From Raja brachyura (taxonomy: Eukaryota), in the NCBI GenBank assembly GCA_963514005.1, contig OY740816.1, forward strand, positions 15,748,001-15,812,000: a DNA stretch of 64,000 nt. The letters run 5' to 3'. Below, piece by piece: positions 21,001 through 58,909 of the stretch. The notes beneath the pieces were generated by a model. The model was given only the letters and a program-made list of their open reading frames with translations, searched no databases and was not told the DNA's origin. The stretch's first letter is position 1. Every line of letters starts with the position of its first letter. A program made the position numbers and the translations under genes.

Positions 21001-23212
21001 CAGTTCATTGGCTATATTTAAGAGGGAGTTAGATGTGGCCCTTGTGGCTAAGGGGATCAGAGGGTATGGAGAGAAGGCAGGTACGGGATACTGAGTTGGA
21101 TGATCAGCCATGATCATATTGAATGGCGGTGCAGGCTCGAAGGGCCGAATGGCCTACTCCTGCACCTAATTTCTATGTATCTATGTTTCTATGTATAAGG
21201 CTGAAGAGTGAACTTCTTGAAGAGCCAAGGTCATGAGCAGCAAGGGTAAACTGAAAATTCACATTCTTTATCCCAGCGCAGAGTATTCTTGAACTGGAGG
21301 CTGTAAGCTTCGGGTAAAAGGTGAGATATTTAATTTGGACCTCCGCCGCAATACTTTGACTAATAGGGTCGTCGGTATTGCGAGCTTCCAGTGCTAATTA
21401 AGGCTTTCAGAAGATATTTGTAGAGATATATGGACACGGGAGGTTGAGAGGACTATGGACCAAATGCTGACAGATGGGATGGGGCAGGATGTAAAATTGG
21501 TCAGTGTGGTAGGTCAAAAGACTCGCCGCCACGTTCTTCTATAAATATGTGACTGGTTCTACGTGGTGGAGTATTTTATCTTTGAAGATTGATGGATACA
21601 CCCGCAATTGTGATCTTCAGAATAGAGTGACCGAGATGGGGAAATAATTAAGTTTTACTACATTTTCACTCAGTGGATCAGCCAGATACCTGGCTGCAGA
21701 TCTCTGCTAATTCGTTAAGGTGTACAGGGGAGGAACTTTGAGGGGGAGCTGCCTAGAATATATTATTTTTTGGAACTCGCTACCTGTAAGAGCAAAGGGA
21801 CAGAAAACATCCACAGATAATGTGTGCTCGATTATATTTCAATGAATAAGACAGTATGTTAAGAATTTGGAGCAGGCGGATAGCGCTTTCCTGATTGGTG
21901 CCAAGGCAATGGGCTGCCGGGGCTCCTTCCGTAATGCAACCCGGCCCTTTTTGGCATCAAAAACATTTAGTAGGAACCTGAAGGGCAACCTTTTCGGACA
22001 AAGGATGTTGGGTGCATTGAACGATTGAAGGTTGTTGGCTGTATAGGGGGAGGTAGTTGAGGCAGGTACTATCGCAACGATTAAGAAATATATGGACAGG
22101 TACATGGATATGACAGATTTAGCGGGATGTGGGTCAAATGCAGACAGGTCGGACGGGTGTGGATGGGACATGTTGGTCAGTATGGGCAGGTTAAGCCTAA
22201 GGGTCTGATTCTACACAGTGTGAAGACTCTATAACAAAGAAGACATTTGATACTTACTCAGTCCAACTGCAGTGCCGAGAGACACAATGGATAACAGGAT
22301 AGAGAGACCAATGAAAGTACAGATGATCAGCAGGAAGAATTTTCCCCGAAAAGACATTGCGGGCCAGACACCATTGCCTGCAAAGTAGAAGTGAAAGATT
22401 AATTGAAGGAATAAGATGAAAGCATCCAGAGAAAAACCACCCCATCCCCTTGACTGGATTCGATGTGAGAATGGGGCTGAGGAAAGTCGAGCTCTGATCT
22501 TTAAATCATCAAACACACATATATTCAATGGAAGACTCGACACCTGTTGAAGGTTAGACATCTAAATTTGACAGGGAATGGAGGTGTTGAAAAAGCTGGC
22601 ACTCCCAACAAACGCAGTGTATCCTTCGCCATGGTAGTTTACAAAGAAGTATATTGAAGAAACATCCGCCCACCGTCCATTTTCCCGTTAACATTCAACA
22701 ATCGCTCTCGACATTTTGCTTCATGTTGCTTTTTGATGTGAAAGTGTCGAGAATTCTAGCCCACCCACTGCAACTGCAACTACATCAACTATTCACTCTC
22801 TGATGATTAGGTTATTTTTAGTTCGATTTTGAGATAAAGCATGGAAACAAGCCCTTCGGCCGACCGAATCCGCATCGATCAGCGACCCCCACACATTAAC
22901 ACTATTCCACACACACTAGGGACAATTTTACACTTATACCAAGCCAATTAACCTGCGTCTTTGGAATGTGGAAGGAAACCGAGGATATCAGAGAAAACCC
23001 ACGCGTTCACTGGGAGAACGTGCAAACTCCCTCACACAAGCACACGTAGTCGGGATCGAACCCGGATCTCTGCAAGCGCTGTATAGCAGCATCTCGACCG
23101 CTACGCCACCGTCCCGCGCTACATGATATGAACCTGGCTTCGGATGTTCCGGCTGATGTCCATCTCCAGGGTCAGGTGCACCAGGTGTTTCACGGAGCCC
23201 CTGGAGCTCCAT
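8882..23212 (-). CDS. C-type lectin gene B (CD209/CLEC4-like type II receptor), 10 coding exons, 330 aa
   Basis: join(23134-23212, 22258-22377, 19856-19930, 18289-18363, 16789-16863, 14572-14646, 12484-12555, 11909-12054, 10630-10739, 8882-9047) = 993 nt. All introns are GT-AG, phases are consistent and there is no internal stop. The start exon is the least certain part. Confidence 0.8.
10375..10520 (+). mobile_element. Rex1/Babar-type LINE 3' end fragment
   Basis: Matches the 3' end at 25285-25408 (aatctttgcacatcccc...ccctcctgggata...tatcgta tail). Confidence 0.6.
10630..10739 (-). CDS. Gene B CTLD exon 2
   Basis: ttttccacag|GAA...AA|gtgagt, 110 nt; EFLARNQIFDSWIGLNDRRKEGIWRWVDGTDYESNV (WIGL motif). 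Confidence 0.92.
11090..11320 (+). mobile_element. Decayed CR1-type LINE/SINE 3' fragment
   Basis: FFTQRVVG-like segment, gaggtagttggggcagg and ggccgaatgg...ctctatgactcta tail. Similar relics at 21280-21550 and 21965-22230. Confidence 0.55.
11909..12054 (-). CDS. Gene B CTLD exon 1
   Basis: cttcgcag|AT...CTG|gttcgt, 146 nt; DPILLVDQWIRFNQTSYYFSSTRGTWNESQDLCASMNSNLVVINSLGEL. Same length as the gene C counterpart. Confidence 0.9.
12484..12555 (-). CDS. Gene B Cys/Pro-rich linker exon
   Basis: ctttttacag|TT...CAG|gtatgt, 72 nt, phase 1-1; VQGCCGTGIVLHPEPCPLIPPHIS. Confidence 0.65.
13790..14005. mobile_element. Inverted (palindromic) pair of Penelope terminal-repeat fragments
   Basis: gctggagtaactcagcgggacaggcagcatctcc...cagac is followed by its reverse complement ...ggctgcctggttcgcggagttactccagc; predicted long hairpin. 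Confidence 0.8.
13856..13887 (-). ncRNA. Minimal hammerhead ribozyme motif (Penelope-associated)
   Basis: Minus strand GTCTGAAGA-AGGGTCTCGACCC-GAAACGTC: CUGANGA core, stem II, GAAA and GUC cleavage triplet. Confidence 0.65.
14572..14646 (-). CDS. Gene B neck-repeat exon 4
   Basis: ccattttag|TG...ATG G|gtgcgt, 75 nt, phase 1-1; VAQLLNETKTSVDNMWRLAVEFGIM. Confidence 0.75.
15580..16043 (-). mobile_element. CR1-type LINE 3' fragment
   Basis: IPGMAGLSYEERLKRLGLYSLEFKRMRG...SRTRGHSL, plus a 3' UTR shared with 50878-51350. Confidence 0.85.
16789..16863 (-). CDS. Gene B neck-repeat exon 3
   Basis: tttttcag|TG...AAT G|gtaagt, 75 nt; VTRLISERNTSDTDLKMDLARYFEN. Confidence 0.8.
18289..18363 (-). CDS. 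Gene B neck-repeat exon 2
   Basis: ctctttcag|TG...AAT G|gtaggt, 75 nt; VIQLLNETKASDSSVMVAISNLKGN. Confidence 0.8.
19856..19930 (-). CDS. Gene B neck-repeat exon 1
   Basis: ctacttcag|TG...GAC G|gtaagt, 75 nt; (M)TRLLSEMKTSDAGFRMELAQVKSD. Confidence 0.8.
20645..21195 (+). mobile_element. CR1-type LINE 3' fragment with tail
   Basis: ORF 20690-21094 QRRFTRLIPGMSGLSYEQRL...; tail ttctatgtatctatgtttctatg. Confidence 0.9.
22258..22377 (-). CDS. Gene B transmembrane exon
   Basis: ctttgcag|GC...CTG A|gtaagt, 120 nt, phase 1-1; NGVWPAMSFRGKFFLLIICTFIGLSILLSIVSLGTAVGL. Confidence 0.85.
22815..23118 (-). mobile_element. tRNA-derived SINE (uninterrupted copy; its part from 22995 starts duplicated block X)
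   Basis: Same family as 2690-3012; B-box-like gggttcgatccc on the minus strand. Confidence 0.75.
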
Positions 23213-23232
23213 GTTCTCAACGTGAAGACCTC
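23134..23232 (-). CDS. Gene B 99-nt cytoplasmic exon (ATG at 23212)
   Basis: aaatttcag|GA...CCA G|gttcat; Kozak aacATGG; MELQGLRETPGAPDPGDGHQPEHPKP; phase 1 joins the TM exon in frame. Confidence 0.6.
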
Positions 23233-24649
23233 CTGAAATTTGAAGAACATATGTACGGAAATTATTTCGTTTTGGCTACAGTTCCCGTTGTTGTACTTCA
23301 GTATTCCGTGTAAGATCTGTGTCTGAATTCCATATAATCTAACCACTTCTGTTTCTGCTACTGCCATCTGGATCTCACTGTTACCTGCCATTTTAATTCC
23401 TCTTTCATTTCCCACAAAGGCTGGTTTCTCTTCGGCCTCCTTCACTGCCAAGGTGCGTCCAAACGCAAACGAGAGGAATATCACATCATATTCCACATGG
23501 GTACCTGCAAACTATCATCGGGAAATCATGAATTCTCCAATTGCAGATAATGCCCACCCTCCAGTGTTCCTTTCCATCTCCTATCTATCCTGGTTCTCTC
23601 ACACCCAGTATGTTTTATCACGATGCTCCCGATTCCGATCACCCTATCCTCTGTCCCGTATCCTATGTGCACATTGCCAACTCACACACTCCACCCATTG
23701 GATTCACTCGCCCTCATTTCTTAACCACCCTTTCCTTGTGTTCTTACTATCTGTCCACCACCTCTATTCGTCGGCTTCACTCTCCCGCTTAATTTCCAAT
23801 CAGGGTCGGAAACTGCACCCTTTTGTTCTCCACTTGCCACCTCCCAGCCTCTAGTGCTATCTTCACCTTCCCACCTCAGCCGACGCTTATCTACCAGCCA
23901 AACCCTCTTCACCTGTATCCATCTATTGCATGCTGGCTCTTGACCCACAATTTACCTCTCTATCTGGACTGCCTGCTTCCCCTTGGCTCATTGACAAGTT
24001 GAAGTATCTGTATACGAATCCCCGTTTCCCACCACAGATGATGCACGACTATCTCGATTTCTCCAGCTGCTCTTCTTTATTGCTTTCAGCATCTGCAGTG
24101 TCTTGTTGCTTTATTTCTGCTTCTTGCCGTTGGGCTCCAGTGGCACTATCATAGTTTCAGAACCTGAAGGGTCAATACACATTCCCGCAAAGATGTGCTT
24201 CCACATAATGTACTAGAGCAACACAGGATGGAACTTGTCCCGTTGACCCAATCTGTCCATGCTGACCATGATGGTGGAATCCCCCCCGCATTTGGCCCAT
24301 ATATCTCCAGACTTTTCCTATCAATGTACCTGTCCAAATGTTGTTATTGTACCGGCCTCGACTACTGGCAGCTCGTTCCACATACCACCCACCCTCATGT
24401 GAACATGTAGACCCTCAGCTTCTGTTAACCTTTCCCTTCCCACGTAAAATCTTTAGTTCTAGATTTCCCTAGCTCGGAAAAACGACACCGTGCATTCATC
24501 CTATCTATTTCTCTCATGGTTTTGTGCATCTTTGTACACATTATACAAATCTGAAGCATTGATTTCTCAATGCAGAGTTAAAACTATGTCGTATTAACTT
24601 CCCTTCTGGAGTAAGTCACTCGAAAATGCACTCGAGCTTGCAGGTCAAC

Positions 24650-25408
24650 CCCAACAACGTTGCTGGTGGACTTTGGGAGGAGAGGAATGCCCCTGTCCCC
24701 TGTCTCCATCAATGGTGTGGATGTGCAGTTTACCAAGGTGTGCAAATACCTTGGAGTTTATCTGGACTGTAAACTGGACTGGTCCAGGAAAACTGAGGCC
24801 CTATACAAGAAACGACAGAGCCGCCTGCACATTTTGAGAAGGCACCGCTCCTTCAACGTCTGCAGTAAGATGCTGCAGATGTTCTACTATTCGGTGGTAT
24901 TCAGTACCACCCCCTTCGCTGTCGTGTGCTGGGGCAGCAGGGCGAAAGCTGCGGACGCCAACACGATCAACAAACTCGTCGGGAAGGCCTACTCCGTCCT
25001 GGGGGCGGAGTTGGACTCATGGGATGTGTTCTTGGAGGAGAGGATGGTCCTCAGACTGCGAAGCATCTTGGACTATACAGCTCACCACCTTCATGATACA
25101 CTGGTTAACCAGAGGAGTACATTCAACAACAGCCTGGTTCCACCCAGGTGCAGTATAGAACGCCACACGAGATCATTTTCCCTGTGGCTATCAAACTGTA
25201 CCGTACCCTATATGCCCATTCGCTACCCACCGCCCTCCCCCTTCAGTCGTGTGGTACACTGACTCCCCTCCCCCCACCCACATCCCCAATCTTTGCACAC
25301 CCACAATCCTTTCCACTCGTCACTTTAATTTCATGTATCTTATGTTTTATGACTGTTGTCAGATCAATTTCCCTCATGGGATAAATAACGTTCCATCCTA
25401 TGGTATCG
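24650..25408 (+). mobile_element. Rex1/Babar-type LINE 3' fragment (copies at 31770-32485, 39358-39588, 56010-56727)
   Basis: LVDF...KYLGVYLDCKLDWS...LYKKxQSRL..LRR.RSFNVC.KMLQMFY, the RT C-terminal region typical of Rex1/Babar; (tatcg)n tail. Confidence 0.75.
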
Positions 25409-26469
25409 TAAAATTAGTTGCATTTATTTGCCGATTTCCAGTGAAAGGTGGGTGGTGGTGGGGTTCAGTTGTGGTTATCAGTTGGAAGGTCTTTGGTCCT
25501 GAAATGAATTGTAAGAAGTAGCGAGGGGAGTGCACTGTTTTTACCTCCATCTATTTCTAAGCCTAGACTGTTTCTTGTGCGACAAGCATGGGTACGGATC
25601 GTTTCCAAATACGCAGAGGAACATTGTAAGCATTGATTTCTGGGTGTTGATGTTTTCACGACAGTGTGACGCCAGTGAATTTGCTTCGAACTCTCTCTTG
25701 GTAGTAATATCTCTTCTGAAATGGTTCACTTAAAAGCCACCGGCCTGCAGACATACCGTACATCAGCATTGTTTTGTCCAGGACTGTACCTTGATATGGC
25801 ATTCAGTATCTGCGGCGATTGCATTAAGTGTGCTCTCAAGCTCCATTTTGAGAATTGTCACATTCGAGTGACAGTAATCTTACACTGCAGAGAAATGTCA
25901 ATGTCAAGTGCAAATTTCACTTTTTGCATCAAGTGAAATAATCTGAAATATCTACGTTAATTTACATTAACTTACTGATATAATGAAAAACCAAGGAGGC
26001 GGGGCAAGTTTGAAAGAGACATGCATGAGTTTTAATTCAGAAAGTTTACCAAAGCAACGCTTGTTAAATAATGACATGGCATGTGTATGTAACGAGCCAC
26101 AACGTGCTGGAGTAACTCAGCGGGTCAGGGAGCGTCTCTAGAGAAGTGATTTGATAGACCAGTCCAAAGAAGGGGGTCGGCTCGACTCGAAACGGCACCT
26201 ACTCAAGTTCTCCCAAGATGCTACCTGAGAGATGCAGTTACTCCAACACTTAGTGGCTCGTTTTATAATCCAGTATATGTAGTTGTTTATGCCTCTAGAT
26301 CACGTGACCAACTTGTTTAATTCTTGTTTTCAATGCACAATGCGCACACACTTCAGTTTTCCCCACATCAACTCCATCTCTGGAGTGTAGAAACCTCCCG
26401 CCATTCCACCGGAGAAAGCGATGTTCCTCTGATTCGCGCTGAATTGCTCGAAAGTCAGACGAAAACATA

Positions 26470-26940
26470 ATGCTAAGATCAACTAATTTCGTTTGCCTGC
26501 ATACGACCCATCTCCATCAATTCCCTGCTTACGCATGTGATAATCTGACATCTTCTCAAAGGCCACTATCATATTAGCCCATACCACCACACTGTCAACG
26601 TGTTCTAGGCACTCACCACTCATGTATAAATGACTTGTCCCACACATCTGATGTAAACTTTGCCCCTTTCATCTTAATTCTAAACCCTTTGGTCTTTGAC
26701 ATTTCCTTCCTTAGTAAAAGGTTCTGACTATAAACACTATCCACATCTCTCATAATATTATTTACTTCTGGCAGATCTCCCCTCAATCTCAGGCTCTCCA
26801 GTGAAATTAGACAAGGCTGTCCAACTTCTCATTAGAGCTAATATCCTCTAATCCAACAGCATTCTGGGAATCCTCTCCAAAGCTTCCCCACCCTTAGTAC
26901 AATTGTGCGACCAGTTCTGCATGCAATATTTCAAATGTAG
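26470..26940 (-). mobile_element. Old CR1-type LINE 3' fragment (copies ~33515-33990 and ~57750-58225)
   Basis: The paralogous ORF 57919-58245 reads HLKYCMQFWS...LGLFSLERLRLRGDL...SKTKGLSFK. Confidence 0.7.
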
Positions 26941-27781
26941 ATCATCAGGCCTATCTGAGTACAGTTTTTGTACAACCCCACGCGTTTCTCTCTTCAGCTT
27001 TGCAAGCTGATATTTATCCAGTTCCTGTATTTAATACCACAAGTACCAGGCTCCACACTTCAGTTTCCAATCACAAGCTGCGCAACATTTCTTCCTATTT
27101 TCCCTCTTGAATTCACTTCCGCTTTAAGTTACACTGGTGACCTCTGGTCCTGAACAGGCTAACATAACACTACCCACTTTACACTGAACTGCCATTTTTT
27201 AAAATTCAGTTGCAAATTTTCTCTTATCAAAAGAATTTAGCTCATTGAATCGGTTGCATTCTCCGTGGAAAGTACAAAAGGAAATCCCACGGGATGTCTC
27301 ACACAGTTATATGCGCTGCTTAACTGATAAACGATGTTACCACATTTGGTGCAATGGAGTACAGAATCGATGGAATGAAGTGCACAACACATAGGACTGG
27401 ATTACACAGCTAACAAGGGGCGATGCGTTGTATTGAGGAGGAAACCATGTAGAATAATGTGGCATTGTGAGGACTGAGAAAGTAATCGATAGAAGAAGCG
27501 AATGTCATCCTGGGATTCCACTATATTATCTAAAAAATATATAATTATGTATATTATGAAATTGGTCAGTTTGCGATATATTTAATCCTGGAGCTTGCAT
27601 GCCGGAGCAAGCAGTATGACAGAGAATGCCTCTATGCCTATAATATAAAATTCAAGTTAGAAATGGGATAGATAGATATAATAATTATTCAAATTGGAAG
27701 TCATTGCTAACTGGAGTAAAGATAGCATGGACGGTTGCAAACCATGCTGAGGGAAATCAAACTGATTATTAAGTAATATAA

Positions 27782-30378
27782 TGGACCGTCAGCCCAGAGA
27801 CATTAGGTTAGACGAACAAGTTACCAATATCTGACTATGGGAGTGTGCAGGGGGTCACCTGAAATTAACGGAATTGGGAGTCTGCCGTGTACCAGCCGTT
27901 GCGTGCAGACCTGCCACCTTGCCCCCCCCCCCCCCCAAGGGAGCACAAAAAGGTCCTAAATAGATGGGTAAACTACTACTTAAATCTACCACCATGGTGT
28001 GCTCGCTGTCAGCCTATATCAGCAACACAAACGGCAGACATTTTTGTCCCCTGCAAAATGCCCGTCAGACCCCCCACAAAGGGCCTGAAAAATGGGCTAG
28101 CATATAGACGAGCAAGGTACCACTCAAAATCATGCCAAATGGACAAGTTGAGTTCATAGAGTACAAAGTGGGTTAGGCCAGACCAATAGTCCGCTGCGAT
28201 ACAGCTACCAGATACCCCAAAAATGGACACCTGCTGTCCAACTAGGCTAGCCTAGATATTGTGGGAACCAGCAAAAACCAAGTTTAAGTAATCTATCACA
28301 CCTTGGGGAATATAAAATGACCAATTATAGAACATTTATCCGCTGTCTTGGGTCTACGAGACGCGCTAAATGGGCACCTGGGCCCATGTAAGATAGCCTA
28401 GATATTAAAGGTTCCAGCTAAAACCTGGCGGTGATGATCAATCACAGCCTAGGAAATACAAAATCATCCATGCCAGAATAATAATCCATTGCCTTGGTCC
28501 TACAAGACTCCCCAAACAGTCCCTTAATTGCCCAACAGGGCGGAGTTGAGGGACTGATAGGCACAAGGCATTCTCCAAGGTGTGATTGATCATTTAAAGC
28601 AAACATTTAGCCCGATGGCAAATATGTGGTCCAAAATTGACACGTTGGTCCCAAGCTCATATGTATAAAGCACAATGTATTTTAAACGTTTATTATTAAT
28701 ATACTGTGTATGGAATGATTCATTAACGTATAGCAGACATTTGTTAACCATACCCCAAAGGAAATTTTCCTTCGTTATGTTACATACTTAAATTATACCT
28801 TATAAATTCGAAAGATATTAACTCCAAATTGTGTACAGTAGTTGGAAGATACCCAATAAGATGTTCGCTAAACTTATTTGTGTGAAATGTTGTTAAACTA
28901 CAATAATCATTTCAGTTTTCTAACATTATTGAGAGATCAAAATCTCGAGGTCGCCATGATAAGTGTATTTGAGGTTAGAGGACACATGTACGAAAAATGA
29001 AAAGTTTCTTATGGCAAAAATAGAAAATGATTTCAGCTTTTGAAAGAAAATGTAAATGATTACTGTACCATCAGTTGTGGAAGTTGTTTTGGATTTTTTT
29101 TCAAGCAAAACCTCACCTCATTTACAAAGAAAAATTGAAGTGATATGATAACCTAAGACTAGATTTGCAGCTGTTCGTACTTTGTATTTTGGTCTTTCAA
29201 AGGGACTATATATTGCTAAAACCACACAGTCATTAGACTAAAGCTCACTGGCATTTTAAGATGCGTCCAAAAACTGCTTCATCAGGTCATTTACCCGGTT
29301 TACCCTAAATCTTGATTTACCAAATGAACAAAAATTGCTTAATGAAATTAAATTACATGACTTTCTGAAGGTGGTTTGGGCATTACGAAACAATAACTTT
29401 TCTTCCAGTTCACATATTCTGTAATTCAACATGTTTACCTGAGAATAATTCTGAAAAGAAAACTCGGTCTGCCGTTAAGCAGTTGTTAGATATGGCGATT
29501 AAAAAAAAAAACAGTTTGCGCAAAAAGCAGCCTGAAGTTACCATTAGCAAAATTGGCGAAACGTGAACAGCTGGGACATATTTTGCAATGAGAAAAAAAT
29601 TAGCAGAGACAGCTGTGCATGTTTTACATCTCATTTTTCATTGTCCGAGTCATCGTTCTATTCCGGTCCACAACTTGTGTCATCTATGTCAAGTGTATCT
29701 TTTGTGACCTCGGTGTGTCCGTCGTCTTCAGTATTGTCACTCACAGAAACATCTTCACAGATATTGTCTGGTACTGCAGGTCCGGGAAACCTATCGGGCA
29801 TGTAATGTCCATTTTCATCCTTCCATCCATACTGCAGTGGATCCATATCTTGATCTGGTTTATGGCAGGTAGATCGTTTAAACTTGGTTTAAACTTGTAC
29901 CCACAATATCGAGGCTAGCCTAGTTGGACTGCAGGGTCCAGTGTGTTCATTTTTGGGGTGTCTGGTACCTGTAGTGCTGCGGACTATTTGTCTGACCTAA
30001 CCCATTTTGTACTCTGAATTCAACTTGTTCATTTGGCATTATTTTTGTGTTGTACATTGCTCGTCTCTATGCTAGCCCGTTATTAGGCCCTTTGTGGTGT
30101 GTCCGGTGCGCCATTGGCAGCGGGAAAATGTGTGCCGTTGGTGTTGTTGATACAAACGCGGCAGCGAGCACACCATGGTAGTGGATTGAAGTGGTACCTC
30201 ACTCATCTATTTAGCACCCATTTTTTGGTCCATTCGGTGGGTCGCCAAGGTATGCACGCTACGGGTGGTACCCGGCAGACTCCCATTTCCGTTCATTTCA
30301 AGTGACCTCCTGCGCACTCCCATAGTTAGATATTCGTACCTAGTTCGTCTAACCTAATGTCTCTGGGCTGACGGTCTA
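27782..30378 (-). mobile_element. Non-autonomous long-TIR DNA transposon, probably Academ superfamily, copy 1
   Basis: Ends T(G)GACCGTCAGCCCAGAGACATTAGG... and ...CCTAATGTCTCTGGGCTGACGGTCTA; ~500-bp imperfect inverted repeats (27782-28296 / 29870-30378); internal remnant DPLQYGWKDENGHYMP..FPGP plus acidic tail. The superfamily is inferred. Confidence 0.75.
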
Positions 30379-38289: not shown

Positions 38290-38354
38290 GAGTAAGTAAG
38301 TAAGTAAGTTTATTGGCCAAGTATTCACATACAAGGAATTTAAATTGTTTTTGA

Positions 38355-39980: not shown

Positions 39981-39983
39981 ACA

Positions 39984-42900: not shown

Positions 42901-43128
42901 AACCAATGGTTAAACCAAAACCACTTCAGTGATGGGAGGGTTGTGTATAGCGATCGCACTACTCAGTATTAATGATCTCCAGCATTTTGATGTTCGATCT
43001 AACTCCTCTCAGTCAAAGGAGTTAGGAGTATTACATCAACCTGAATCTTGGGCATGGTGGACAGCGTTGAAGAAATTAGCAGCTAACTTGATTTAATGAT
43101 GAACCTTACATCTGGCGCCCGACAAACA
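39984..43128 (+). repeat. Segmental duplication block Y, copy 1 (upstream region of gene C)
   Basis: Collinear with 60300-63413, including the SINE and the (CA)n tract. Confidence 0.9.
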
Positions 43129-43296: not shown

Positions 43297-43425
43297 ATTT
43301 GGAATTGTGAATTTCATCAAGTCATCTGACCATTAGTATCGCGTAACCTTGTGAGAGGCGCAGATTATTTACTATAATTCGACCGCGCATGTTCTTCAAA
43401 GACTAGAAGGTCTTCAAGCTGAAAA

Positions 43426-46400: not shown

Positions 46401-47209
46401 GCTTTCCGTACACAAGCACCGCCATAAAGACCTCGTCAATGTCCTGCATGATATTCAGGGCATCAGCTTTGCAACCAGGACATGTAAACATGGAAAATGC
46501 AAAACACATATCCCTCTCACCCTATACCGGCATTTAATTTCTCTAGTTGTTAATAAATAGATGAGCGTTATAGAGCAGGATAAATCTTACACGGGGTTGT
46601 ACATACAAGTAATACAGTACTGTCACCAGCTATTGTTTCCACATATACTGAAATCCTTCCGTTTACATGACAGGGCTTTTTGAAGAAACATGTTGATGTC
46701 ATTCGGTGGATTGGCCTGAGTGATTCGGCCTCTGAAGGTGACTGGCGCTGGGTAGATGGAACCGATTATATTTCCTCTGTAAAGTGAGTTTCTTTCCTTA
46801 TATCTCCTTAAAATTCCTTCGCAATTCTAATCCTTTTTGATGGGCCAAATGGCCAAATTCTACTCATATTCCTAATGACCTTGTGATCAAAGGCAGTGAT
46901 CGAAATGCTGAAATAGACAACGAAACGCCTTTGTGAGATTACCGTCAGCAGACGGAATTCATAATAGCATCTAAACATTTTATAAGAAATACAGGTGAAG
47001 CTAGCGGCACTACAGGCTGTTAAGATCGAAGTAGGAATCCTTGTAACATTTTTATTTTCCATGTTCTATTTTATTATAGGTTCTGGGGTGTGGGAGAACC
47101 CAATAACAAGAGAGTGGAACGCTGTGTGGAAATGCTTGGTGTTGGACGTTGGAATGATCAAGAGTGCAGCGATTTACAGAGGTGGATCTGTGAGAAACCA
47201 GCAGAGTGA
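43426..47209 (+). CDS. C-type lectin gene C (CD209/CLEC4-like, EPN mannose-type), 6 exons, 214 aa
   Basis: join(43426-43516, 43885-44004, 44284-44331, 45428-45573, 46674-46783, 47080-47209) = 645 nt, all GT-AG and in frame. MEQMDYYADV...TM...CPEQW..FQQSCY...WIGL...FWGVGEPNN...C...WND..C...WICEKPAE*. Confidence 0.92.
44625..44790 (-). mobile_element. Penelope terminal-repeat fragment with hammerhead motif (44724-44756)
   Basis: gaactgcagatgctggtttaaaccgaagat...; the minus strand reads CTGAAGAAGGGTCTCGACCCGAAACGCC. Confidence 0.75.
45793..46530 (-). mobile_element. Non-LTR retroelement 3' fragment (CR1/L2-group, distinct family) in gene C intron 4
   Basis: RAGRFI...SSVSSLIKDL...RR..IRL..FHKI...RDWNTLP C-terminal motifs; (CCAGAT)4 tail. 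Confidence 0.6.
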
Positions 47210-48103: not shown

Positions 48104-48109
48104 AATAAA
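48104..48109 (+). terminator. Candidate polyadenylation signal of gene C
   Basis: AATAAA ~900 nt after the stop; a second AATAAA lies at ~48079. Confidence 0.35.
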
Positions 48110-48124
48110 CGCAATGTGTGGGAT

Positions 48125-48264
48125 NNNNNNNNNNNNNNNNNNNNNNNNNNNNNNNNNNNNNNNNNNNNNNNNNNNNNNNNNNNNNNNNNNNNNNNNNNNN
48201 NNNNNNNNNNNNNNNNNNNNNNNNNNNNNNNNNNNNNNNNNNNNNNNNNNNNNNNNNNNNNNNN
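48125..48264. other. Assembly gap (140 N)
   Basis: Run of n. Confidence 1.
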
Positions 48265-48942: not shown

Positions 48943-51900
48943 TTGACCGTCAGCCCAGAGACATTAAATTAGACGAACTATGTACAAATGACTGACCATG
49001 GGAGTGTGCAGGGGTCACCTGTAATGGATGGAATTGGGAATCTGCCGGGTATCACCTGCTGCGTGTAGACCTTGGTTGGTAAATAAATGAGTAAGGTACC
49101 ACTTAAATCCACCACCACGGTGTGCTCACTGTCACGCCCATATCAACAACACAAACGGCAGACATTTTTCCCGCTGCAAAAAGGTCAACCAGACCCCCCC
49201 CCCCCCCCCCTACAAAGGGCCTAATAAATGGGCTAGCATAGACGAGCAAGGCACCACTCAAAATAATGCCAAATGAACAAGTTGAGTTCATAGAGCACAA
49301 AATGGCTTATGCCAGACAAATAGTCCGCTGCAATACAGGTACCAGACACCCCAAAAATGGACAACTGGTGTTCAACTAGGCTAGCCTAGATATTGTGGGT
49401 ACCAGCTAAAACCAAGTTTAAGTGATCTATCACACCTTGGGGGATATAAAATGACCTACGACAGAACAATTATCCACTTCCTTGGGTCTACCAGACCCCC
49501 TAAATGAGCCCGATAGGCATAAGGGGTTCCCCAAGGGTCTGATGGGCACAACGCATTCCCCAAGTCGCGATTGATTATTTAAAGCAAACATTTAGCCCGA
49601 TGGCAAACATGTGGTCCAAAATTGACACTTTGGTCCCAAGCTCATTTGTATATGGCCCAATGTATTTTTAAAGTGTATTATTAATGTACTTGTGTAGGGA
49701 ATTAGTCATTAAAGAATAACAGACTCAAATGTTAACCCTACCGCTAAGGAAATGTTCTGTCGTTTTGTTACATAGTTACATTAAACCTTTAAATTCGAAA
49801 TATATTATATTGCATAGCAATAGTTGGAAGATACCCCATAAGATGTCCTCTGAACTTATTTGTGTGAAACGCTGTTAAACTACAATAATTATTTCAGTTT
49901 TCTAACATTACTGGGAGATCAAAATCTCGAGGTCGCCATGATAACTGTATTTGAGGTTGGAGAACACATGTACAAAACATGAAAAGTTTCTTATGGCAAA
50001 AATGGAAAATGATTTCAGCTTTTGAAAGAAAATGTAAATGATTACTGTACCATCAGTTGTGCAAGTTGTTTTGGAATTTTTTTCAAGCAAGCCCTCACCT
50101 CATTTACATATAAAAATTGAAGTGATATGATGACCTAAGACTAGATATGCAGCTGTTGGTACTTTGTATTTTGGTCTTTCAAAGGGAGTATGTATTGCTA
50201 AAACCACAGAGTCATTGGAGTAAAGCTCACTGGAATTTTAAGCAGTCCAAAAACTGCTTCATCAGGTCATTTACCCGGTTTACACTAAATCTTGATTTAC
50301 AAAATGAACAAGAAATGCTTAATGAAATTAAATTACATGACTTTCTGAAGGTGGCTTGGGCATTACGAAATAATAACTTTTCTTCCAGTTCACATATTCT
50401 GTACTTCAACATATTTACCTGAGAATAATTCTGAAAAGATAACTTGGTCTGCCGTTAAGCAGTTGTTAGATATAGCGATTTCAAAACAAACAGTATGCAT
50501 CAAAAACAGCCTGAAGTTGCCATTAGTAAAATTGGCAAAATGTGAACAGCTGGACATATTTTGCAATGAGAAACAAATTAGCAGACAGACAGCAGGGCAT
50601 GATGTACATCTCATTTTCATGTTCCGAGTCATCGTTCTATTCTGGTCCAGAACTTGTGTCATTTATGTCAAGTGTACCTTCTATGTCCTCGGTGTGTCCG
50701 TCGTCTTCAGTATTGTCACTCACAGAAACATCTTCAAAGACGTTGTCTAGTACTGCAGGTCCGGGAAACCTATCGGGCATGTAATGTCCATTTTCATCCT
50801 TCCATCCATACTGCAGTGGATCCATATCTTGATCTGGTTTGTGCAGGTGAAAACTCAATCAACTTAATCTTGGAATAGAAACATAGAAAAATAGGTGCAG
50901 GAGTAGGTCATTCGACCCTTCGAGCCTGCACCGCCATTCAATATGATCATGGTTGATCATCCAACTCGGTATCCCGTACCTGCCTTCTCTCCATACCCCC
51001 TGATCCCTTTAGCCACAAGTGCCACATCTAACGCCCTCTTAAATATAGCCAATGAACTGGCCTCAACTACCTTCTGTGGCAGAGAATTCCAGAGACTCAC
51101 CACTCTCTGTGTAAAAAATGTTTTCCTCATCTCGGTCCTAAAGGAATTCCCCCTTATCCTTAGACTGTGACCCCTTGTTCTGGACTCCCCCAACATCGGG
51201 AACAATCTTCCCGCATCTAGCTTGTCCAACCCCTTAAGAATTTTGTAAGTTTCTATAAGATCCACCCTCAATCTTCTAAATTCCAGCGAGTACAAGCCGA
51301 GTCTATCTAATCTTTCCTCATATGAAAGTCCTGACATCCCAGGAATCAGTCTGGTGAATCTTCTCTGTACCCCCTCTATGGCAAGGATGTCGTTCCTCAG
51401 ATTTCGTGACCAAAACTGTACGCAATACTCCAGGTGTGGCCTCACCAAAACCCTGTACAACTGCAGTAGAACATCCCTGCTCCTATACTCAAATCCTTTC
51501 GCTATGAATGCTAACATACCATTTGCTTTCTTCACTGCCTGCTGCACCTGCATGCCTACTTTCAATGACTGGTGTACCATGACACCCAGGTCTCGTTGCA
51601 TCTCCCCTTTTCCTAATCTGCCACCATTCAGATAATAGTTTCCCCTCATGTTTTTGCCACCAAAGTGGATAACCTCACATTTATCCACATTATACTGCAT
51701 CTGCAATGTATCTGCCCATTCACTCAGCCTATCTAAATCACCCTGCAGCCTCCAAGCATCCTCCTCACACCTAACTATACCCCCCAGCTTGGTGTCATCT
51801 GCAAATTTGGAGATGTTGCATTGAATTCCCTCGTCCAAATCATTAATATATATTGTAAATAGCTGGGGTCCCAGCACTGAACCTTGCGGTACCCCACTAG

Positions 51901-53741
51901 CCACTGCCTGCCATTCTGAAAATGACCCGTTTACTCCTACCCTTTGCCTCCTGTCTGCTAGCCAGTTCTCTATCCACATCAATACTGAACCCCCAATACC
52001 GTGTGCTTCAAGTTTGTATGCTAATCGCTTATTCGGGACCTTGTCGAAAGCCTTCTGAAAGTCTAGATATAACAGATCCACTGGTTCTCCCTTATCCACT
52101 CTACTAGTTACATCCTCGAAAAATTCTATCAGATTTGTCAGACATGATTTACCTTTCGTAAATCCATGCTGACTTCGTCTAATGATTTCACCACTTTCCA
52201 AATGCGCTGCTATCCCATCTTTAATAACTGACTCTAGCAGTTTCCCCACTACCGATGTTAGACTAACTGGTCTGTAATTCCCTGCTTTCTCTCTCCCTCA
52301 TTTTTTAAAAAGTGGGATTACATTAGCTACCCTCCAATCCTCAGGAACTACTCCAGAATCTAAGGAATTTTGAAAAATTATCACTAATGCATCCACTATT
52401 TCTGTGGATACTCCTTGAGTACTCTGGGATGCAGACTATCTGGCCATGGGGATTTATCGGCCTTCAATCCGTTCAATTTACCCAACACCACCTCCCGGCT
52501 AACCTGGATTTCACTCAGTTCCTCAATCTTATTTGACCCCCGTTCCACTGCTATTTCCGGCAGATTATTTATGTCTTCCTTAGCGAAGACAGAACCAAAG
52601 TAGTTATTCAATTGGTCTGCCATGTCCTTGTTCCCCATGATCAATTCACCTGTTTCTGACTGCAAGGGACCAACATTTGTTTTAACTAGTCTCTTTCTCT
52701 TCACATATCTAAATCATCATTACAGTTTAGAGGACCCCCCCCCCCCCCCCATGTACATTGTCTTACTACTAGTACTAGCTAAGGTTATGTAATTTGCCCA
52801 GGATAATATTAGCCTTGACTGTACTAAAAAACGTTAATGGGAGAAAAATGTATACTAAAAATACTATCCGTCAAAGCTTGTCCTTCCATTTGCATATAGC
52901 AAACTTAAAAAACCTAGGTCGTCTACGTATTTTGTTTATTAGTTTGGTTCAAGATGATAAATCTATCAAACATAAATAACAAATTATCAGTTTATGAATC
53001 ACTAAAAAATTAACATTATTGTAGCAATTATCTTCTTCATCTGTGATATATGGTAAGTAAATATTGCAAATATTTCGAAATTCATACTTAAGGCCAAGGC
53101 AATGGGTTATCATTCTGGCATGGGTCATTTTGTATTTCACAGGCTGTGATTGTTCATCTAAACCTGATTTCAGCTGGTGCCTTTAATATCTAGGCTAGCG
53201 TAGATTGGTCCAAGAGCCCATTTAGGGGGTCTGGTAGGCCCAATGAAGCAGATAATTGTTCTGTCACATGCCAATTTATATTCCCCAAGCTATGGGGGAT
53301 CATTTAAACTTGGTTTAATCTTGTACACACAATATCTAGGACTGCAGGGTCTAGGGTGTTCATTTTTGGGGTGTCTGGTACCTGTACTGCAGCGGACTAT
53401 TTGTCTGGCCTAACCCATTTTGTACTCTGAATTCAACTTGTTCATTTGGCATTATTTTTGTGTGGTACATTGCTCGTCTATACGCTAGCCCGTTTTTCGG
53501 CCCTTTGTGGTGTGGCTGGCGGGCCTTTTGCAGCGGGAAAAATGTCTGCCGTTGGTGTTGTTGATATAGACGCGGCAGGGAGCACACCATGGCAGTGGAT
53601 TCAAGTGGTACCTCATCTATTTAGCACCCATTTTTTGGCCCCTTGTGGGGTCACCAAGGTATACACACCACGGGTGGCACTCCCATAGTCAGATATTGGT
53701 ACCTAGTTTGTCTAATCTAATGTCTCTTGGCTGACGGTCTA
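48943..53741 (-). mobile_element. Long-TIR (Academ-like) transposon copy 3, with nested CR1 LINE
   Basis: Ends TTGACCGTCAGCCCAG... and ...GGCTGACGGTCTA; right TIR 53090-53741 mirrors 27782-28500; remnant ORF 50637-50858. Confidence 0.78.
50878..52710 (-). mobile_element. Young 5'-truncated CR1-type LINE with 430-aa open RT ORF (50957-52249)
   Basis: QHGF..GKSCLTNL, YLDFQKAFDKV, GVPQGSVLGP and KFADDTKL RT motifs; absent from the equivalent site in copy 2 (36600). Confidence 0.95.
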
Positions 53742-53882
53742 AAACCCATGCGGTCACTGGGAGAACGTACAAACTCCCTTCAGACAAGCACATGTTGTCG
53801 GGATCGAACCCGGATCTCTGCAAGCGCTGTAAGGCAGCACCTCTGCCGCTGCGCCACAACACCCCCCCTACATGATATGGAC

Positions 53883-53981
53883 CAGGCTTTGGATATTCCG
53901 GCTGATGTCCACCTCCAGGGTCAGGTGCACCGGGAGTTTCACGCAGCTCCCGGATCTCCATGTTCGCAACTTGAAGACCTC
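53883..53981 (-). other. Duplicated 99-nt gene B cytoplasmic exon (alternative exon or pseudo-exon)
   Basis: AG/GT, ATG and frame are retained: MEIRELRETPGAPDPGGGHQPEYPKP. Confidence 0.45.
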
Positions 53982-54606
53982 CTGAACTTTGAAGAACATA
54001 TGAGCAAACATTATTTGGTTTTGTCTTTTTTGTTTTTTTTTGTTAAATATTTTTATTAGAAGTAAGTACATATCAAAATAAAAATATACATGTCGTATAC
54101 ATTCTTAATGTTATTAATATTAACAGTTATTTCAAATTTGTACTTCTATGAATTTTTCATTTTTAATATAGATAGAAAATATAAGAGAAAAATAAAATAA
54201 AGATAGAAATTCAGAAATATGAATGAAGTATTAAGCAGTTTGTACATCATTGGTGATATTTCATGGGTTATTATATGGAAATCTTCGTCTAATTCTTCGT
54301 TCAGGCATCAGTCAGGTTCTCGCACCGAACCACTTTGACCCTTTAAATATTCAATAAATGGAGACCATATCCCTCTATTTGGTTTTGTCTGCAGTTCCCC
54401 ATGTTGCACTTTAGTATTCCGTGTAAGATCTGGGTCTGAATTCCATATAATCTAACCACTTCTGTTTCTGCTACTGCTGTCTGGATCTCACGGTTGCCTG
54501 CCATTTTAATTCCTCTTTCATTTCCCACAGAGACTGGTCTCTCTTCGGCCCCCTTCACTGCCAAGAAGCTTCCAAACGCAAGCGAGAGGAACATCATATA
54601 ATATTC

Positions 54607-55126
54607 ATAGAAACATAGAAAATAGGTGCAGGAGTAGGCCATTCGGCCCTTCGAGCCTGCACCGCCATTCAATGTGATCATGGCTGATCATCCAACTCAG
54701 TATCCCGTACCTGCCTTCTCTCCATACCCCCTGATCCCTTTAGCCACAAGTGCCACATCTAACGCCCTCTTAAATATAGCCAATGAACTGGCCTCAACTA
54801 CCTTCTGTGGCAGAGAATTCCAGAGACTCACCACTCTCTGTGTAAAGAATGTTTTCCTCATTTCGGTCCTAAAGGAATTTCCCCTTATCCTTAGACTGTG
54901 ACCCCTTGTTCTGGACTCCCCCAACATCGGGAACAATCTTCCAGCATCTAGCTTGTCCAACCCCTTAAGAATTTTGTAGGTTTCTATAAGATCCCCCCTC
55001 AATCTTCTAAATTCCATCGAGTACAAACCGAGTCTATCCAATCTTTCCTCATATGAAAGTCCTGACATCCCAGGAATCAGTCTGGTGAATCTTCTCTGTA
55101 CCCCCTCTATGGCAAGGATGTCTTTC
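54607..55126 (-). mobile_element. Young CR1-type LINE 3' fragment
   Basis: Nearly identical to 50878-51390; interrupts the block X sequence atattc|cacatggg. Confidence 0.92.
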
Positions 55127-58100
55127 CACATGGGTTCCTGCAAACTATCGGCGGGGAATCATGAATTCTCCAATTGCAGATAATGCCCACCACCCGGTGT
55201 CCCTTTCCATCTCCTCCTATCTATCCTGGTTCTCTCACACCCACTATTGTTTATCAGAATGCGCCCGACCCCGATCACCCTATCCTCTGTCCCGTACCCC
55301 ATGTGCACATTGCCTACCCACACACTCCACCCATTGCATTCACTCACCCTCACTTCTTACCCACTCCTTTTTGTTCTTACTATCTGTCCACCCCCATTTG
55401 TCGGCTTTACTCTGCCGCTTCATTTCGTATCAGGATCGGAATCTGCACCCGTTTGTTCTCCACTTGCCACCACCCAGTCTCTCGTGCTATCTTCACCTTT
55501 CCCACCTCAGCTGACGCTTATCTACCAGTCAAGCCCTCTTCACCTGTATTCATCTATTGCATGCTGGCTCTTGCCTCACAATTCACCTCCCTATCTAGAC
55601 TACCTGCTTCCCCTCGGCTCATTGACAAGTTGAACTATCTGCATCCTAATCCCCGTTTCCCTCCATAGATGCTGCTCGACCAGCTTAATGTCTCCAACAG
55701 CTCTACTTTATTGCTTTCATCATCTCAGTGTCTTGTTGCTCAACATCTGCCTCTTGCCGTTGCGCTCCAGTGGCACTATCATAGTTCCCGAGCCTGAAGG
55801 ATCAATACACCTTTCCCTTCCCGCGTAGTAACTTTAGTCCTTGATTCCCCTACCTCGGGAAATCTGCACCGTGCATTCATCCTATCTATTTCTCTCATGG
55901 TTTTGTACACCTTTGTACACGTTATACAAATCTGAAGCATTGATTTCTAAATGCTGAGTATTAACTTCCCTTCTGGAGTAATCACTCGAAAACCCATTCG
56001 AGCTTGCAGGTCAACACCGACAAAGTTGCTGGTGGACTTTAGGAGGAGAGGAACACTCCTGTCCCCTGTCTCCATCAATTGTGTGGATGTGTAGATTACC
56101 AAGCAGAACAAATACATTGGAGTTTATCTGGACAGTAAACTGGACTAGTCCAGGAACGCTGAGTCCCTGTACAAGAAGGGACAGAGTCGGCTGTACTTTT
56201 GAGAAGGCTCCGCTCCTTCAATGTCTGCAGTAAGATACTACAGATGTTCTACCATTCTGTGGTAGTCAGTGGCATCCTCTTGGCGGACGTATGCATGGGC
56301 AACAGGGCTAGGCTGCGGACGCCAACAAGATTAACAAAGTCATCAGGAAGACCGGTTCCGTCCTAGGGGCGGAGTTGGATGCATGGGAACTGGTTTTGAA
56401 GAGCATCTTGGAAATACAGCTCACCCCCTCCATGACACACTAGTCAACCTGAGGAGTACATGTAGCAACGCACTGTTTACACCAAGATGCTGTATAGAAC
56501 GCCACAGTAGATCCTTTTCCCTGTGGCTATCAAACTGTACAACTCCTCCCCCTTCTGCCGTGGGGTACACTGACTCCTCTGCGCCAACCCCCATCCCCCT
56601 CCCCAATCTTTGCACATCCCTAATCCTTTCCACTCGTCTCATTAATTTCATGTATCTTCTGTTTTATGACTGTTGTCAAATCAATTACCCTCCTGGGATG
56701 AATAAATGTCCATCGTATCGTATCGTCAAAATATATGCATATATTTGTGGATTTCCTGTTGAAGGTGGGTGGGGGTTCAGTTGTGGTTATCAGTTGGAAG
56801 GTCTTTGGCCCTGAAATGAATTGTAAGAAGTAGCGAGGGGAGTGCACTGTTTTGACCTCCATCTATTTCTAAGCCTAGACTGTTTCTTGTGCAACAAGCA
56901 TGGGGATGGATCATTTCCAAATGGGCAGGGAAACTTTGTAAGCATTTTTTCTTTGGATGTTGCTGTTTGCGCGGCGGAGTGACGCCAGTGAATTTGCTTC
57001 GAACTCTCGCTTGGTAGTAATATCTCTTCTGGAATTGTTCACTTAAAAGCCACCGGCCTGCAGACATACAGTACTGCAGCTTTTTTTTGTCCAGGACTGT
57101 ACTTTGATATGACATTCAGTATCTGCTGCGATTGCATTAAGTTTGCTCTCAAGCTCCATTCTCAGCATTGTCACATTCGAGTGACAGCAATCTTACACTG
57201 CAGGGAAATGCCAAAAGTAGCTTTTGCGTGTAGTAAAATAATCTGAAATATCTTCATAATGTAAAATCAAGGAGGCAGGGGGCAAGTTTGAAAGAGACAT
57301 GCATGAGTTTTAATTCAGAACGTTTATCTGAGCAACGTTTGTTAAATAATGAAATGGCATGTGTATGTAACGAGACACAAAGTGCTGGAGTAACTCACCG
57401 GGTCAGGCAGCATCTCTAGAGAAGTGGTTTGATAGGCCAATCTAAAGAAGGGGGTGGCTCGACTCGAAACGGCACCTACTCAAGTTCTCCCAAGATGCTA
57501 CCTGACCAGATGCAGTTACTCCAGTACTTTGTGGCTCTTTTTATAAGCCAGCATCTGTAGTTGTTCGGGCCTCTCTAACACATAACCAACTTGTTTAATT
57601 CTTGTTTTCAATGCACAATGCGCACCCACTTCAGTATATCCCACATTAACTCCATCTCTGGAGTGTAGAAACCTCCCGCCATTTCACCGGTGTAAGCAGT
57701 GTTCCTCTGTTTCGTGCTGAATCGCTCGATAGTCAGTCGAAAACATAATGCAAAGATCAAGTAAGGTCGTTTGCCTCCATATGACCCATCTCCATCCATT
57801 CCCTACTTACGCATGTGATAATCTAAAACTTTCTTACACGCCACTATCATATTTGCCCCAACCACTACACTGGGCAACGTGTTCTAGGCACTTGCCACTC
57901 ATGTTTAAATGACTTGTCCTACACATCTGATGTAAACTTTGCCCCTTTCATCTTGAAGCTAAGCCCTTTGGTCTTTGACATTTCCATCCTGAGTAAAAGG
58001 TTCAGACTATCAACACCATCCACATCTCTCATAGTATTATTTACTTCTGTCAGGTCTCCCCTCAATCTCAGGCGCTCCAGTGAAAACAAGCCAAGGCTGT

Positions 58101-58909
58101 CCAACTTCTCAATATTGCTAATATCCTCTAATCCAGACAGCATCCTGGGAATCCTCTCCAAAGCTTCCGCACCCTTACTACAATTGTGCGACCAGAACTG
58201 CATGCAATATTTCAAATGTAGATCATCAGGTTTCATATTGAGCAAAGCTTTTGTACCACCTCGCGCGTTTTCTCACATCCGCTTTGCAAGTCATTCTTCA
58301 CCAGATATTTATCCAGTTCTTGTACTTAATACCACACATACCAGATTCCACACTTCAGTTTCCAATCACAAACTGCAGAACATTTCTTCCTCTTTGCCCT
58401 CTTGAATTCGCTTCCCCTTTAAAAAACACTTGCGACCTCTGATCCTGAACAGGCTAGCATAGCACTACCCACTTTACACTGAACCGTTATTTTTTTTATA
58501 TTCAATAGGACATTTTCTCTTACCCGTCTCTTCTCTAAAGAAGCAATTCTAACCACTCCAATCTACCCGTGTGATTATGGTTTTTGCTCCCAGAAGCAGT
58601 TTTTAACGATCTGCTTTCATCAAATTCTCTAACGCCCTTGTTCATTTCCTACAGAGTAGAGACTGTAATGGAATAAAATGTTGAAATTGAGACCGGACCG
58701 AAGTTTGCTACAGGTTCAGTACAACGACTATGTATTTTAAGCTACAATCGATAAAATACAGAACTATGTGTGTCTTATTTAGTATTTTATCATCCGGTCC
58801 ACAAAGTCTAATGTTCAGTGCTGTGGCGTCGGCACATGATGCCCGGTTCGGCAGTGACCACACCAACACGGCTGTTCAGTCCTTCTTCGTCTTCCAAAGA
58901 GGAGACGTG

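What the first reader, a model, noticed from the sequence alone, without database searches (positions are those of the whole stretch)
22995..58520. Transposon-punctuated array of duplicated 5' modules of lectin gene B: possible variable-first-exon receptor locus
Seen: block X carries the ATG-bearing 99-nt cytoplasmic exon of gene B plus ~4.5 kb of upstream sequence, and occurs four times in the same orientation. No extra TM, neck or CTLD exons accompany the extra copies. Three copies (23134-23232, 30517-30615, 53883-53981) keep the AG acceptor, GT donor, aacATGG Kozak, 99-nt length and phase-1 frame, but differ in sequence (MELQGL..DGHQPEH / MEILEL..VGHQPEN / MEIREL..GGHQPEY). Inference: each could splice to the single TM exon at 22377, giving alternative promoters or tails on one constant ectodomain, an architecture analogous to protocadherin or UGT1A loci. 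Use of copy 4 would place gene C antisense inside an intron. The copies could equally be inert, recent pseudo-exons.
Basis: partly seen in the sequence, partly recalled or inferred. Interest (0 to 1): 0.75.

Follow-up and report, generated by a model that had tools for sequence, protein, structure and literature searches.

The report
Orphan lectin first-exon copies beside transposons
In a fish (likely a skate), the first coding exon and upstream DNA of an immune lectin gene sit in four copies separated by transposon-like elements, but the spare exons have changed as fast as the non-coding DNA around them, so they are likely inert leftovers of duplication rather than switchable alternative starts.

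Summary
The architecture is real. Gene B, an intact 330-codon type II C-type lectin, has its 99-nt tail exon plus upstream DNA (block X) in four same-strand copies; three keep AG, ATG, GT and frame, and the fourth is cut before the ATG. Copies 2 and 4 start exactly at the end of a long-TIR transposon-like element, copy 2 is a recombinant mosaic, and the upstream block of neighbour gene C is duplicated too. Neutral drift alone would leave both spare exons intact about 14-24% of the time. All three tails lack the Tyr motif found in 30 of 40 family tails, and copy 4 has a 364-nt insertion just upstream. Splicing could not be tested. Best reading (0.7): transposon-bounded partial duplications left orphan 5' modules, as in mammalian lectin clusters. 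A functional variable-first-exon locus remains possible (about 0.13); hints for it are three non-synonymous three-state sites and pN/pS below 1 (not significant).

The parts
8882..22377 (-). Gene B constant body: TM exon 22377-22258; four 75-nt neck exons (19930-19856, 18363-18289, 16863-16789, 14646-14572); stalk 12555-12484; lectin-domain exons 12054-11909, 10739-10630, 9047-stop 8882
   Evidence: All AG/GT bounded, one open frame; Pfam Lectin_C pieces; closest models 77-83% identical in little and thorny skate
22994..27783 (-). X1: the resident 5' module of gene B (part of an intron repeat, tail exon, upstream DNA)
23134..23232 (-). Copy 1 tail exon, ATG at 23212, 26 codons, phase 1; 756 nt from the TM exon
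   Evidence: homologous to tails of skate paralogues
25790..25884 (-). Candidate upstream 95-nt AG..GT exon with its own ATG (57 nt to donor, phase 0, out of frame with B); copies at 32845-32939 and 57103-57197; unverified
27114..27121 (-). CGGAAGTG, an ETS-like motif (consensus recalled); the only other copy in the window is 138 nt upstream of gene C's ATG; altered in X2 and X4; candidate promoter, unverified
27784..30376 (.). TE1: DNA-transposon-like element, about 520-nt imperfect terminal inverted repeats (80%), no evident transposase frame, no matching target duplication
   Evidence: terminal parts are multi-copy in four public runs
30378..34800 (-). X2: orphan 5' module, begins at the TE1 end; X4-like proximally, X1-like distally
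30517..30615 (-). Copy 2 tail exon, intact, ATG at 30595; 8.1 kb from the TM exon
34804..38290 (.). TE2: same element, right end deleted
38357..39970 (-). X3: truncated, internally rearranged copy; exon cut before the ATG; sister to X1
39977..43128 (+). Block Y1, DNA upstream of gene C
   Evidence: duplicated at 60293-63413, 289 of 3034 aligned sites differ
43427..47209 (+). Gene C, a head-to-head lectin paralogue; would lie antisense inside a copy-4 intron
48125..48264 (.). 140-N assembly gap between gene C and TE3/X4
48945..53739 (.). TE3: same element (TIRs about 565 nt, 75%), with a LINE-like insertion at about 50877-52709 (LINE label from recall of its look)
53741..58522 (-). X4: orphan 5' module with the same TE-end junction as X2; insertions at 54027-54375 and 54607-55123; distal end truncated
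53883..53981 (-). Copy 4 tail exon, intact frame, donor weakened to CTG/GTCCAT; 31.5 kb from the TM exon
60293..63413 (+). Block Y2, second copy of gene C's upstream DNA, ending about 160 nt short of the motif upstream of gene C's ATG

Best explanation
Copies 2-4 are likely inert orphan 5' modules of lectin gene B, likely made by transposon-bounded tandem duplication whose breakpoint lies in the intron after the tail exon, and likely drifting neutrally since. Shown: the copies exist, X2 and X4 begin at the same transposon end at the same intron position, gene C's upstream block is duplicated as well, X2 is a mosaic, one copy is already destroyed, and the exon has diverged as fast as its flanks. 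Inferred: one transposon-end event (alternative transposition, or insertion followed by adjacent deletion of the rest of a duplicated gene) created the TE-X junction once; unequal crossing-over then multiplied and recombined the unit; gene B is made mainly from copy 1 (or from the in-frame ATG in its TM exon). The spare modules would be raw material for later tail or promoter exchange rather than a working switch.
For: Exon vs whole-block differences: X1-X2 10/99 vs 461/4375, X1-X4 12/99 vs 475/3864, X2-X4 7/99 vs 327/3821; Fisher p 1.0, 1.0, 0.72; 13 of 34 non-overlapping 99-nt windows are as conserved as the exon or more. The 168 nt upstream of the exon are likewise not conserved above flank in the X1 comparisons (11.3%, 10.7%). 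Chance that both spare exons keep AG, ATG, GT, no stop and no frameshift under the observed flank rates: 0.14-0.24, and 1 of 3 spare copies is in fact dead. X2 and X4 share the same flank at the TE end. Four-copy informative sites group (X1,X3) against (X2,X4): 31 vs 7 vs 1. X2 switches affinity at about 25.5-26 kb (p 1e-12). Block Y is duplicated at the same depth (9.5%) as the TE interiors (8.7-10.5%) and X. Copy 4 took a 364-nt insertion beside its acceptor/5' UTR. At L3 and D17, where most or half of the four paralogues aligned agree with copy 1, both spare copies differ. None of the three tails has a YxxPhi-type motif, present in 30 of 40 family tails. In 0 of 13 within-species groups of family models do isoforms of one gene put different tails on the same TM.
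Against: No RNA test was possible, so silence is not shown. pN/pS is below 1 in all three pairs (0.089/0.159, 0.089/0.265, 0.054/0.103), though 5 synonymous of 13 changes is not significant (p 0.21). Two of three spare exons being intact has only 0.14-0.24 neutral probability. Three of 79 coding columns have a different base in every copy and all three change the amino acid, against 16 of 3297 flank columns (p 0.007-0.035, found after looking; one other region reaches the same count). X2-X4 divergence just upstream of the exon is low (7/168). No target-site duplication was found, so the exact transposition route is unproven. Short immune-receptor tails can evolve near the neutral rate while functional (own knowledge).
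Confidence: 0.7

Rival explanations
1. Functional variable-first-exon locus: copy 2 (less likely copy 4) has its own promoter and splices to the TM exon or through copy 1, giving different tails or expression patterns on one ectodomain.
For: Same orientation; intact AG, ATG and GT; all tested joins in frame; pN/pS below 1; three non-synonymous three-state sites; X2 DNA also lies in runs of two other organisms; CD23a/b and rodent NKG2D-S/L show that lectins can use alternative N-termini.
Against: No conservation above flank; tails 81% identical and without the family Tyr motif; weak donors 8.1 and 31.5 kb away against one 756 nt away; copy 4 is interrupted and lies across gene C and a gap; the ETS-like motif is altered in both spare copies (motif recalled); no such isoforms in 13 groups of family models.
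Confidence: 0.13
2. Leaky or regulatory use only: the duplicated upstream DNA fires at low level or acts as an enhancer for B or C, giving rare or non-coding transcripts with no selected protein product.
For: Whole upstream regions were copied; a candidate upstream exon is slightly more conserved than the block (5/91, 7/91, 6/91).
Against: Small numbers; 4 AATAAA sites lie between copy 2 and the TM exon and 18 between copy 4 and it; nothing here shows transcription.
Confidence: 0.11
3. X4 (or X2) is the true first exon of a separate B paralogue whose body is hidden in the 140-N gap or placed elsewhere in the assembly.
For: A gap lies 680 nt beyond TE3, on the side where X4's downstream exons would be; only this window could be read.
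Against: 48265-48944 has no likeness to B's introns beyond a short common repeat, and neither TE left flank continues B's intron; X2 has the same junction with no gap beside it.
Confidence: 0.05
4. Assembly artefact: the copies are uncollapsed alleles.
For: A gap lies inside the array.
Against: Copies differ by 6-14%, while contigs of the closest runs mostly differ from the window by 0-6 letters per 220-700; contigs with 0-1 differences lie on X2 and others on X1 in the same runs.
Confidence: 0.01

Closest known systems
Partial genes and tail/lectin module shuffling in mammalian natural killer complex lectin clusters (KLRC/KLRH; PMC5350243, passages read)
   Same: Type II lectin cluster with gene fragments, block duplication, non-allelic recombination, and tails that move between genes.
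   Different: Here the orphan part is the tail exon with upstream DNA, repeated three times upstream of one intact gene and bounded by a DNA-transposon-like element; cartilaginous fish, CD209/hepatic-lectin-like family.
Transposon-induced tandem direct duplications (maize Ac/Ds reversed-ends transposition; PMC3744419, abstract and section 10 read)
   Same: Direct repeats that start exactly at a transposon terminus; an element whose two flanks do not match.
   Different: No element here keeps a target duplication, the superfamily is unidentified, the TIRs are about 520-565 nt, and later recombination has reshaped the array.
Variable-first-exon clusters: protocadherin alpha/gamma, UGT1, GCNT2 (PMC1885805, passages read)
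   Same: Tandem, same-strand, same-phase first exons upstream of one constant exon set; relic exons occur in those arrays too.
   Different: Those exons encode a whole specificity domain, each has a promoter with a conserved motif, splicing is shown and the layout is kept across vertebrates. Here the exon gives 26 residues, is not conserved above flank, and splicing is untested.
CD23a/CD23b (PMC8359454, passages) and rodent NKG2D-S/L (PMC2685100, abstract)
   Same: C-type lectins with alternative cytoplasmic N-termini on one ectodomain; the NKG2D case was driven by a mobile element.
   Different: Their isoforms differ in uptake or signalling and are shown by RNA. The NKG2D-L promoter comes from a retrotransposon, not from a duplicated first exon (that CD23b also uses an unrelated first exon is recalled).
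Chondrichthyan CD209-like / hepatic-lectin-like receptors (XP_055520118.1 Leucoraja erinacea, XP_032906727.1 Amblyraja radiata for B; XP_055522195.1 for C)
   Same: 77-83% identity in B's lectin-domain exons, and a matching stalk or neck exon.
   Different: Neither skate model of B includes B's tail or TM exon; B's tail has lost the YENI-type motif.

Membership tests
Variable-first-exon cluster (Pcdh/UGT1/GCNT2 type) | Tandem same-strand homologous first exons upstream of one constant exon set | tested here: met
Variable-first-exon cluster (Pcdh/UGT1/GCNT2 type) | Variable exons intact and frame-compatible with the constant exons | tested here: met
   3 of 4 copies
Variable-first-exon cluster (Pcdh/UGT1/GCNT2 type) | Each variable exon is spliced to the constant exons in mRNA | not testable with these tools
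   no RNA run was available to lay
Variable-first-exon cluster (Pcdh/UGT1/GCNT2 type) | Variable exons conserved above their flanks | tested here: not met
   10.1/12.1/7.1% vs 10.5/12.3/8.6%; (low power: 99 nt)
Variable-first-exon cluster (Pcdh/UGT1/GCNT2 type) | Each exon has its own promoter with a conserved motif | tested here: inconclusive
   upstream DNA copied but not conserved above flank vs X1; copy 4 interrupted; ETS-like motif altered
Variable-first-exon cluster (Pcdh/UGT1/GCNT2 type) | Variable exon encodes the specificity-determining domain | tested here: not met
   26-residue tails, 81% identical, no YxxPhi-type motif
Variable-first-exon cluster (Pcdh/UGT1/GCNT2 type) | Layout conserved across species | tested here: inconclusive
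   X2-type DNA in runs of 3 close organisms; no alternative-tail isoforms in 13 model groups; no other genome read
Transposon-induced tandem direct duplication | Duplicate begins exactly at a transposon terminus, in direct orientation | tested here: met
   X2 at 30376/30378 and X4 at 53739/53741 share one junction
Transposon-induced tandem direct duplication | First element with a target duplication, second matching on one side only | tested here: inconclusive
   no matching flanks for TE1 or TE3 at 3 offsets; the original insertion is not in the window
Transposon-induced tandem direct duplication | Element assigned to a cut-and-paste superfamily | not testable with these tools
   no repeat library held; no evident transposase among 15 frames of 90 aa or more in 27700-38400 (read by eye)
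Type II C-type lectin receptor (CD209/ASGR/CLEC10A-like) | N-terminal tail, one TM, neck repeats, three-exon lectin domain (gene B) | tested here: met

The most novel reading that the evidence does not exclude
A transposon-built, evolutionarily young variable-first-exon immune receptor: copy 2 (and perhaps copy 4, across an antisense gene) supplies alternative promoters and tails to one lectin ectodomain, or stacks in frame with copy 1 to lengthen the tail. This would be a protocadherin-like architecture caught at birth in a cartilaginous fish, with the three-state codons 4, 17 and 23 as its first diversified sites.
Probability: 0.13. Interest if true: 0.7.

Novelty: new member of a known kind. 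Interest (0 to 1): 0.25.

Why it matters
On the best reading it is a clear but ordinary case of birth and death in an immune lectin cluster, with an unusually legible transposon-end breakpoint. It shows the raw material from which tail swaps or alternative promoters can arise; horn shark paralogues with 52% identical tails on 93% identical bodies suggest such exchange happens in this family. If RNA showed copy 2 or 4 in use, it would be a datable origin of a variable-first-exon locus, testable with one RT-PCR.

Tried and rejected
Whole genome: none held, so nothing beyond the window could be read. RNA: the one run search (window 8450-12100) gave 'no RNA holder listed' (6 runs of unrecorded kind, 3 studies); this is no evidence either way. 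Laying 4 of those 6 runs on 21700-35400 gave contigs only: its joints were repeat-driven, 330 difference rows were cut so exon integrity in the other organisms could not be read, and the one contig over the TE/X2 junction has only 26 letters on one side, so it does not count as bridging; the closest sample may be the assembly's source. Protein searches with B's TM exon (0 of 23 candidates) and with the three tails read 41 codons on (0 of 565) found nothing, which is weak evidence. The fragment alignment was misaligned and not used. Rfam: 0 matches in the window. Earlier scan findings: none in 3 look-ups. Literature searches listed no paper on this locus; PMC10751288 (4 passages) had nothing on it; supplements were not read. 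The idea that the 95-nt upstream exon is an older copy of the tail exon was not supported by alignment. Whether the AG is a true acceptor or lies inside a first exon is unresolved: its AG..AGGTC context is shared with genes A and C, but its pyrimidine tract is at the low end (9-10 of 16, against 9-14 for B's internal acceptors). In one search, 20 of 60 family proteins were dropped for lacking a TM-preceded tail of 25 residues or more, and isoforms count separately.
Full report
Setting. The window holds three type II C-type lectin genes. Gene B (minus strand) is intact: a 26-codon tail exon, a TM exon, four 75-nt neck exons, a stalk and three lectin-domain exons, all internal exons AG/GT bounded, one frame of 330 codons. 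Its closest database relatives are skate models at 77-83% identity in the lectin-domain exons, so the organism is inferred to be a skate; the species was not determined and no genome is held. Gene C lies head-to-head on the plus strand (43427-47209), and gene A starts at 3735 on the minus strand.

Observation. Copy 3 is cut before the ATG. No spare TM, stalk or lectin-domain exon of B is in the window. Copy 2 or copy 4 joined to B's body is open, and so are stacked joins through copy 1, because the exon is symmetrical in phase 1. The copies are paralogues, not alleles: they differ by 6-14%, whereas contigs of the closest public runs mostly differ from the window by 0-6 letters per 220-700 and lie on both X1 and X2 (four runs, at most three samples, of which the closest may be the assembly's source). 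Contigs of two other organisms also lie on X2, with 8 of 279 and 15 of 361 letters different; the second could be X4-type.

How the array was built. An element with about 520-565-nt imperfect inverted ends and no evident transposase lies between the copies; its ends are multi-copy in the runs. X2 and X4 both begin immediately at its right end, at the same position inside a repeat in B's intron, so that junction arose once. X1 and X2 share the junction to the left end. No element has matching flanks. This fits the signature described for alternative transposition in maize, where one terminus of the second element lacks its target duplication (PMC3744419, abstract and section 10), but insertion into a duplicated gene followed by adjacent deletion gives the same junction and cannot be excluded. 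Informative sites group X1 with X3 and X2 with X4 (31 vs 7 vs 1). X2 is X4-like up to about 25.5 kb and X1-like beyond 26 kb (190:72 vs 49:89 odd-one-out sites, p 1e-12), the mark of unequal crossing-over or conversion. Gene C's upstream block Y is duplicated at the same depth (9.5%) as the element interiors (8.7-10.5%), so at least X4 looks like a passenger of a larger unit.

Is the exon under selection? Exon versus block differences are 10/99 vs 461/4375, 12/99 vs 475/3864 and 7/99 vs 327/3821 (Fisher p 1.0, 1.0, 0.72), and 13 of 34 windows of the same size are at least as conserved. Simulated substitution at flank rates leaves both spare exons intact 32-42% of the time; adding the observed frameshifting indel rate gives 14-24%. 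One of three spare copies is already lost. Against four paralogous tails, copy 1 keeps L3 (2 of the 3 with a residue there) and D17 (2 of 4) where both spare copies differ. Results on the other side: pN/pS is below 1 in all pairs, though 5 synonymous of 13 changes is not significant (p 0.21); and three coding columns carry three different bases, all non-synonymous, against 16 of 3297 flank columns (p 0.007-0.035, noticed after the fact, with one flank region reaching the same count). With 79 coding bases the power is low in both directions.

Would a switch matter? The tails are 81% identical. A YxxPhi-type motif (role in uptake and signalling recalled) is present in 30 of 40 family tails examined but in none of the three copies; copy 4's new tyrosine reads YPKP. 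The TM exon has its own in-frame methionine. Donors are weak in all copies and weakest in copy 4 (judged against the recalled consensus). Copy 4 has a 364-nt insertion with a 15-nt direct repeat just upstream of its AG and a 520-nt insertion further up, and it lies 31.5 kb away, across gene C and a gap. In 13 within-species groups of shark and ray models, isoforms differ by skipping TM or neck exons; none puts two tails on one gene's TM. The two closest skate models of B lack its tail and TM altogether, so they say nothing on tail use.

Comparison with known systems. True variable-first-exon clusters have domain-sized exons, each with a promoter and a conserved motif, and are spliced to constant exons (PMC1885805, passages). 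This locus meets the geometric criteria, fails the conservation and specificity-domain criteria, and is untested on splicing, so it should not be filed there. The closest match is the partial genes and tail exchange of mammalian NK lectin clusters (PMC5350243, passages). Two horn shark paralogues in the same family share 15 of 29 tail residues but about 203 of 219 elsewhere (tail counted by hand), which suggests that tail modules do move between genes here. Five literature searches listed no description of this locus.

Verdict. The feature is real. It is most likely a set of transposon-bounded orphan 5' modules (0.70). Functional alternative first exons get 0.13, leaky or regulatory use 0.11, a hidden paralogue 0.05 and artefact 0.01. 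Interest 0.25; 0.7 if RNA shows copy 2 or 4 spliced to the TM exon.

Noticed in passing
window 23134-23212, 30517-30595, 53883-53961: Codons 4, 17 and 23 each have a different base, and a different amino acid, in all three copies (3 of 79 columns vs 16 of 3297 in flanks). Unexplained; chance or a hint of diversification.
   Followed up: partly
window 23134-23212: Gene B's tail has lost the YENI-type motif found in 30 of 40 family tails; gene A's tail also lacks a tyrosine, while gene C has a YYADV stretch.
   Followed up: partly
P0199 vs P0155 (Heterodontus francisci models): Separate paralogues with 52% identical tails but about 93% identical bodies, suggesting tail-exon exchange or body homogenisation in shark lectin clusters.
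   Followed up: partly
window 60293-63413: Second copy of gene C's upstream block, ending just short of the promoter-like motif and followed by unrelated repeat-like DNA; a gene C paralogue may lie beyond the window.
   Followed up: no
window 25790-25884 and 27114-27121: Candidate upstream exon with a strong-context ATG out of frame with B, and a CGGAAGTG motif matching gene C's upstream motif; may mark B's real start site.
   Followed up: partly
window 14572-19930: Gene B has four 75-nt neck-repeat exons in tandem, each a separate phase-1 exon.
   Followed up: no
window 23183: All four laid runs read a different letter from the window here (a synonymous site), matching copies 2 and 4; the window's letter is private or an error.
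   Followed up: yes
window 30606: One contig of organism B has a 3-nt deletion in the untranslated part of the copy-2 exon, at about half the local depth.
   Followed up: no
window 20645-21184, 50875-51415, 54606-55125: Three copies of one about 520-nt LINE-like fragment, 90-97% identical, one of them inside X4.
   Followed up: no
window 8885-9046: Gene B's sugar-binding loop reads QPE..WHD rather than the EPN/QPD..WND motifs (canonical motifs recalled); relatives have QPN..WHD.
   Followed up: no
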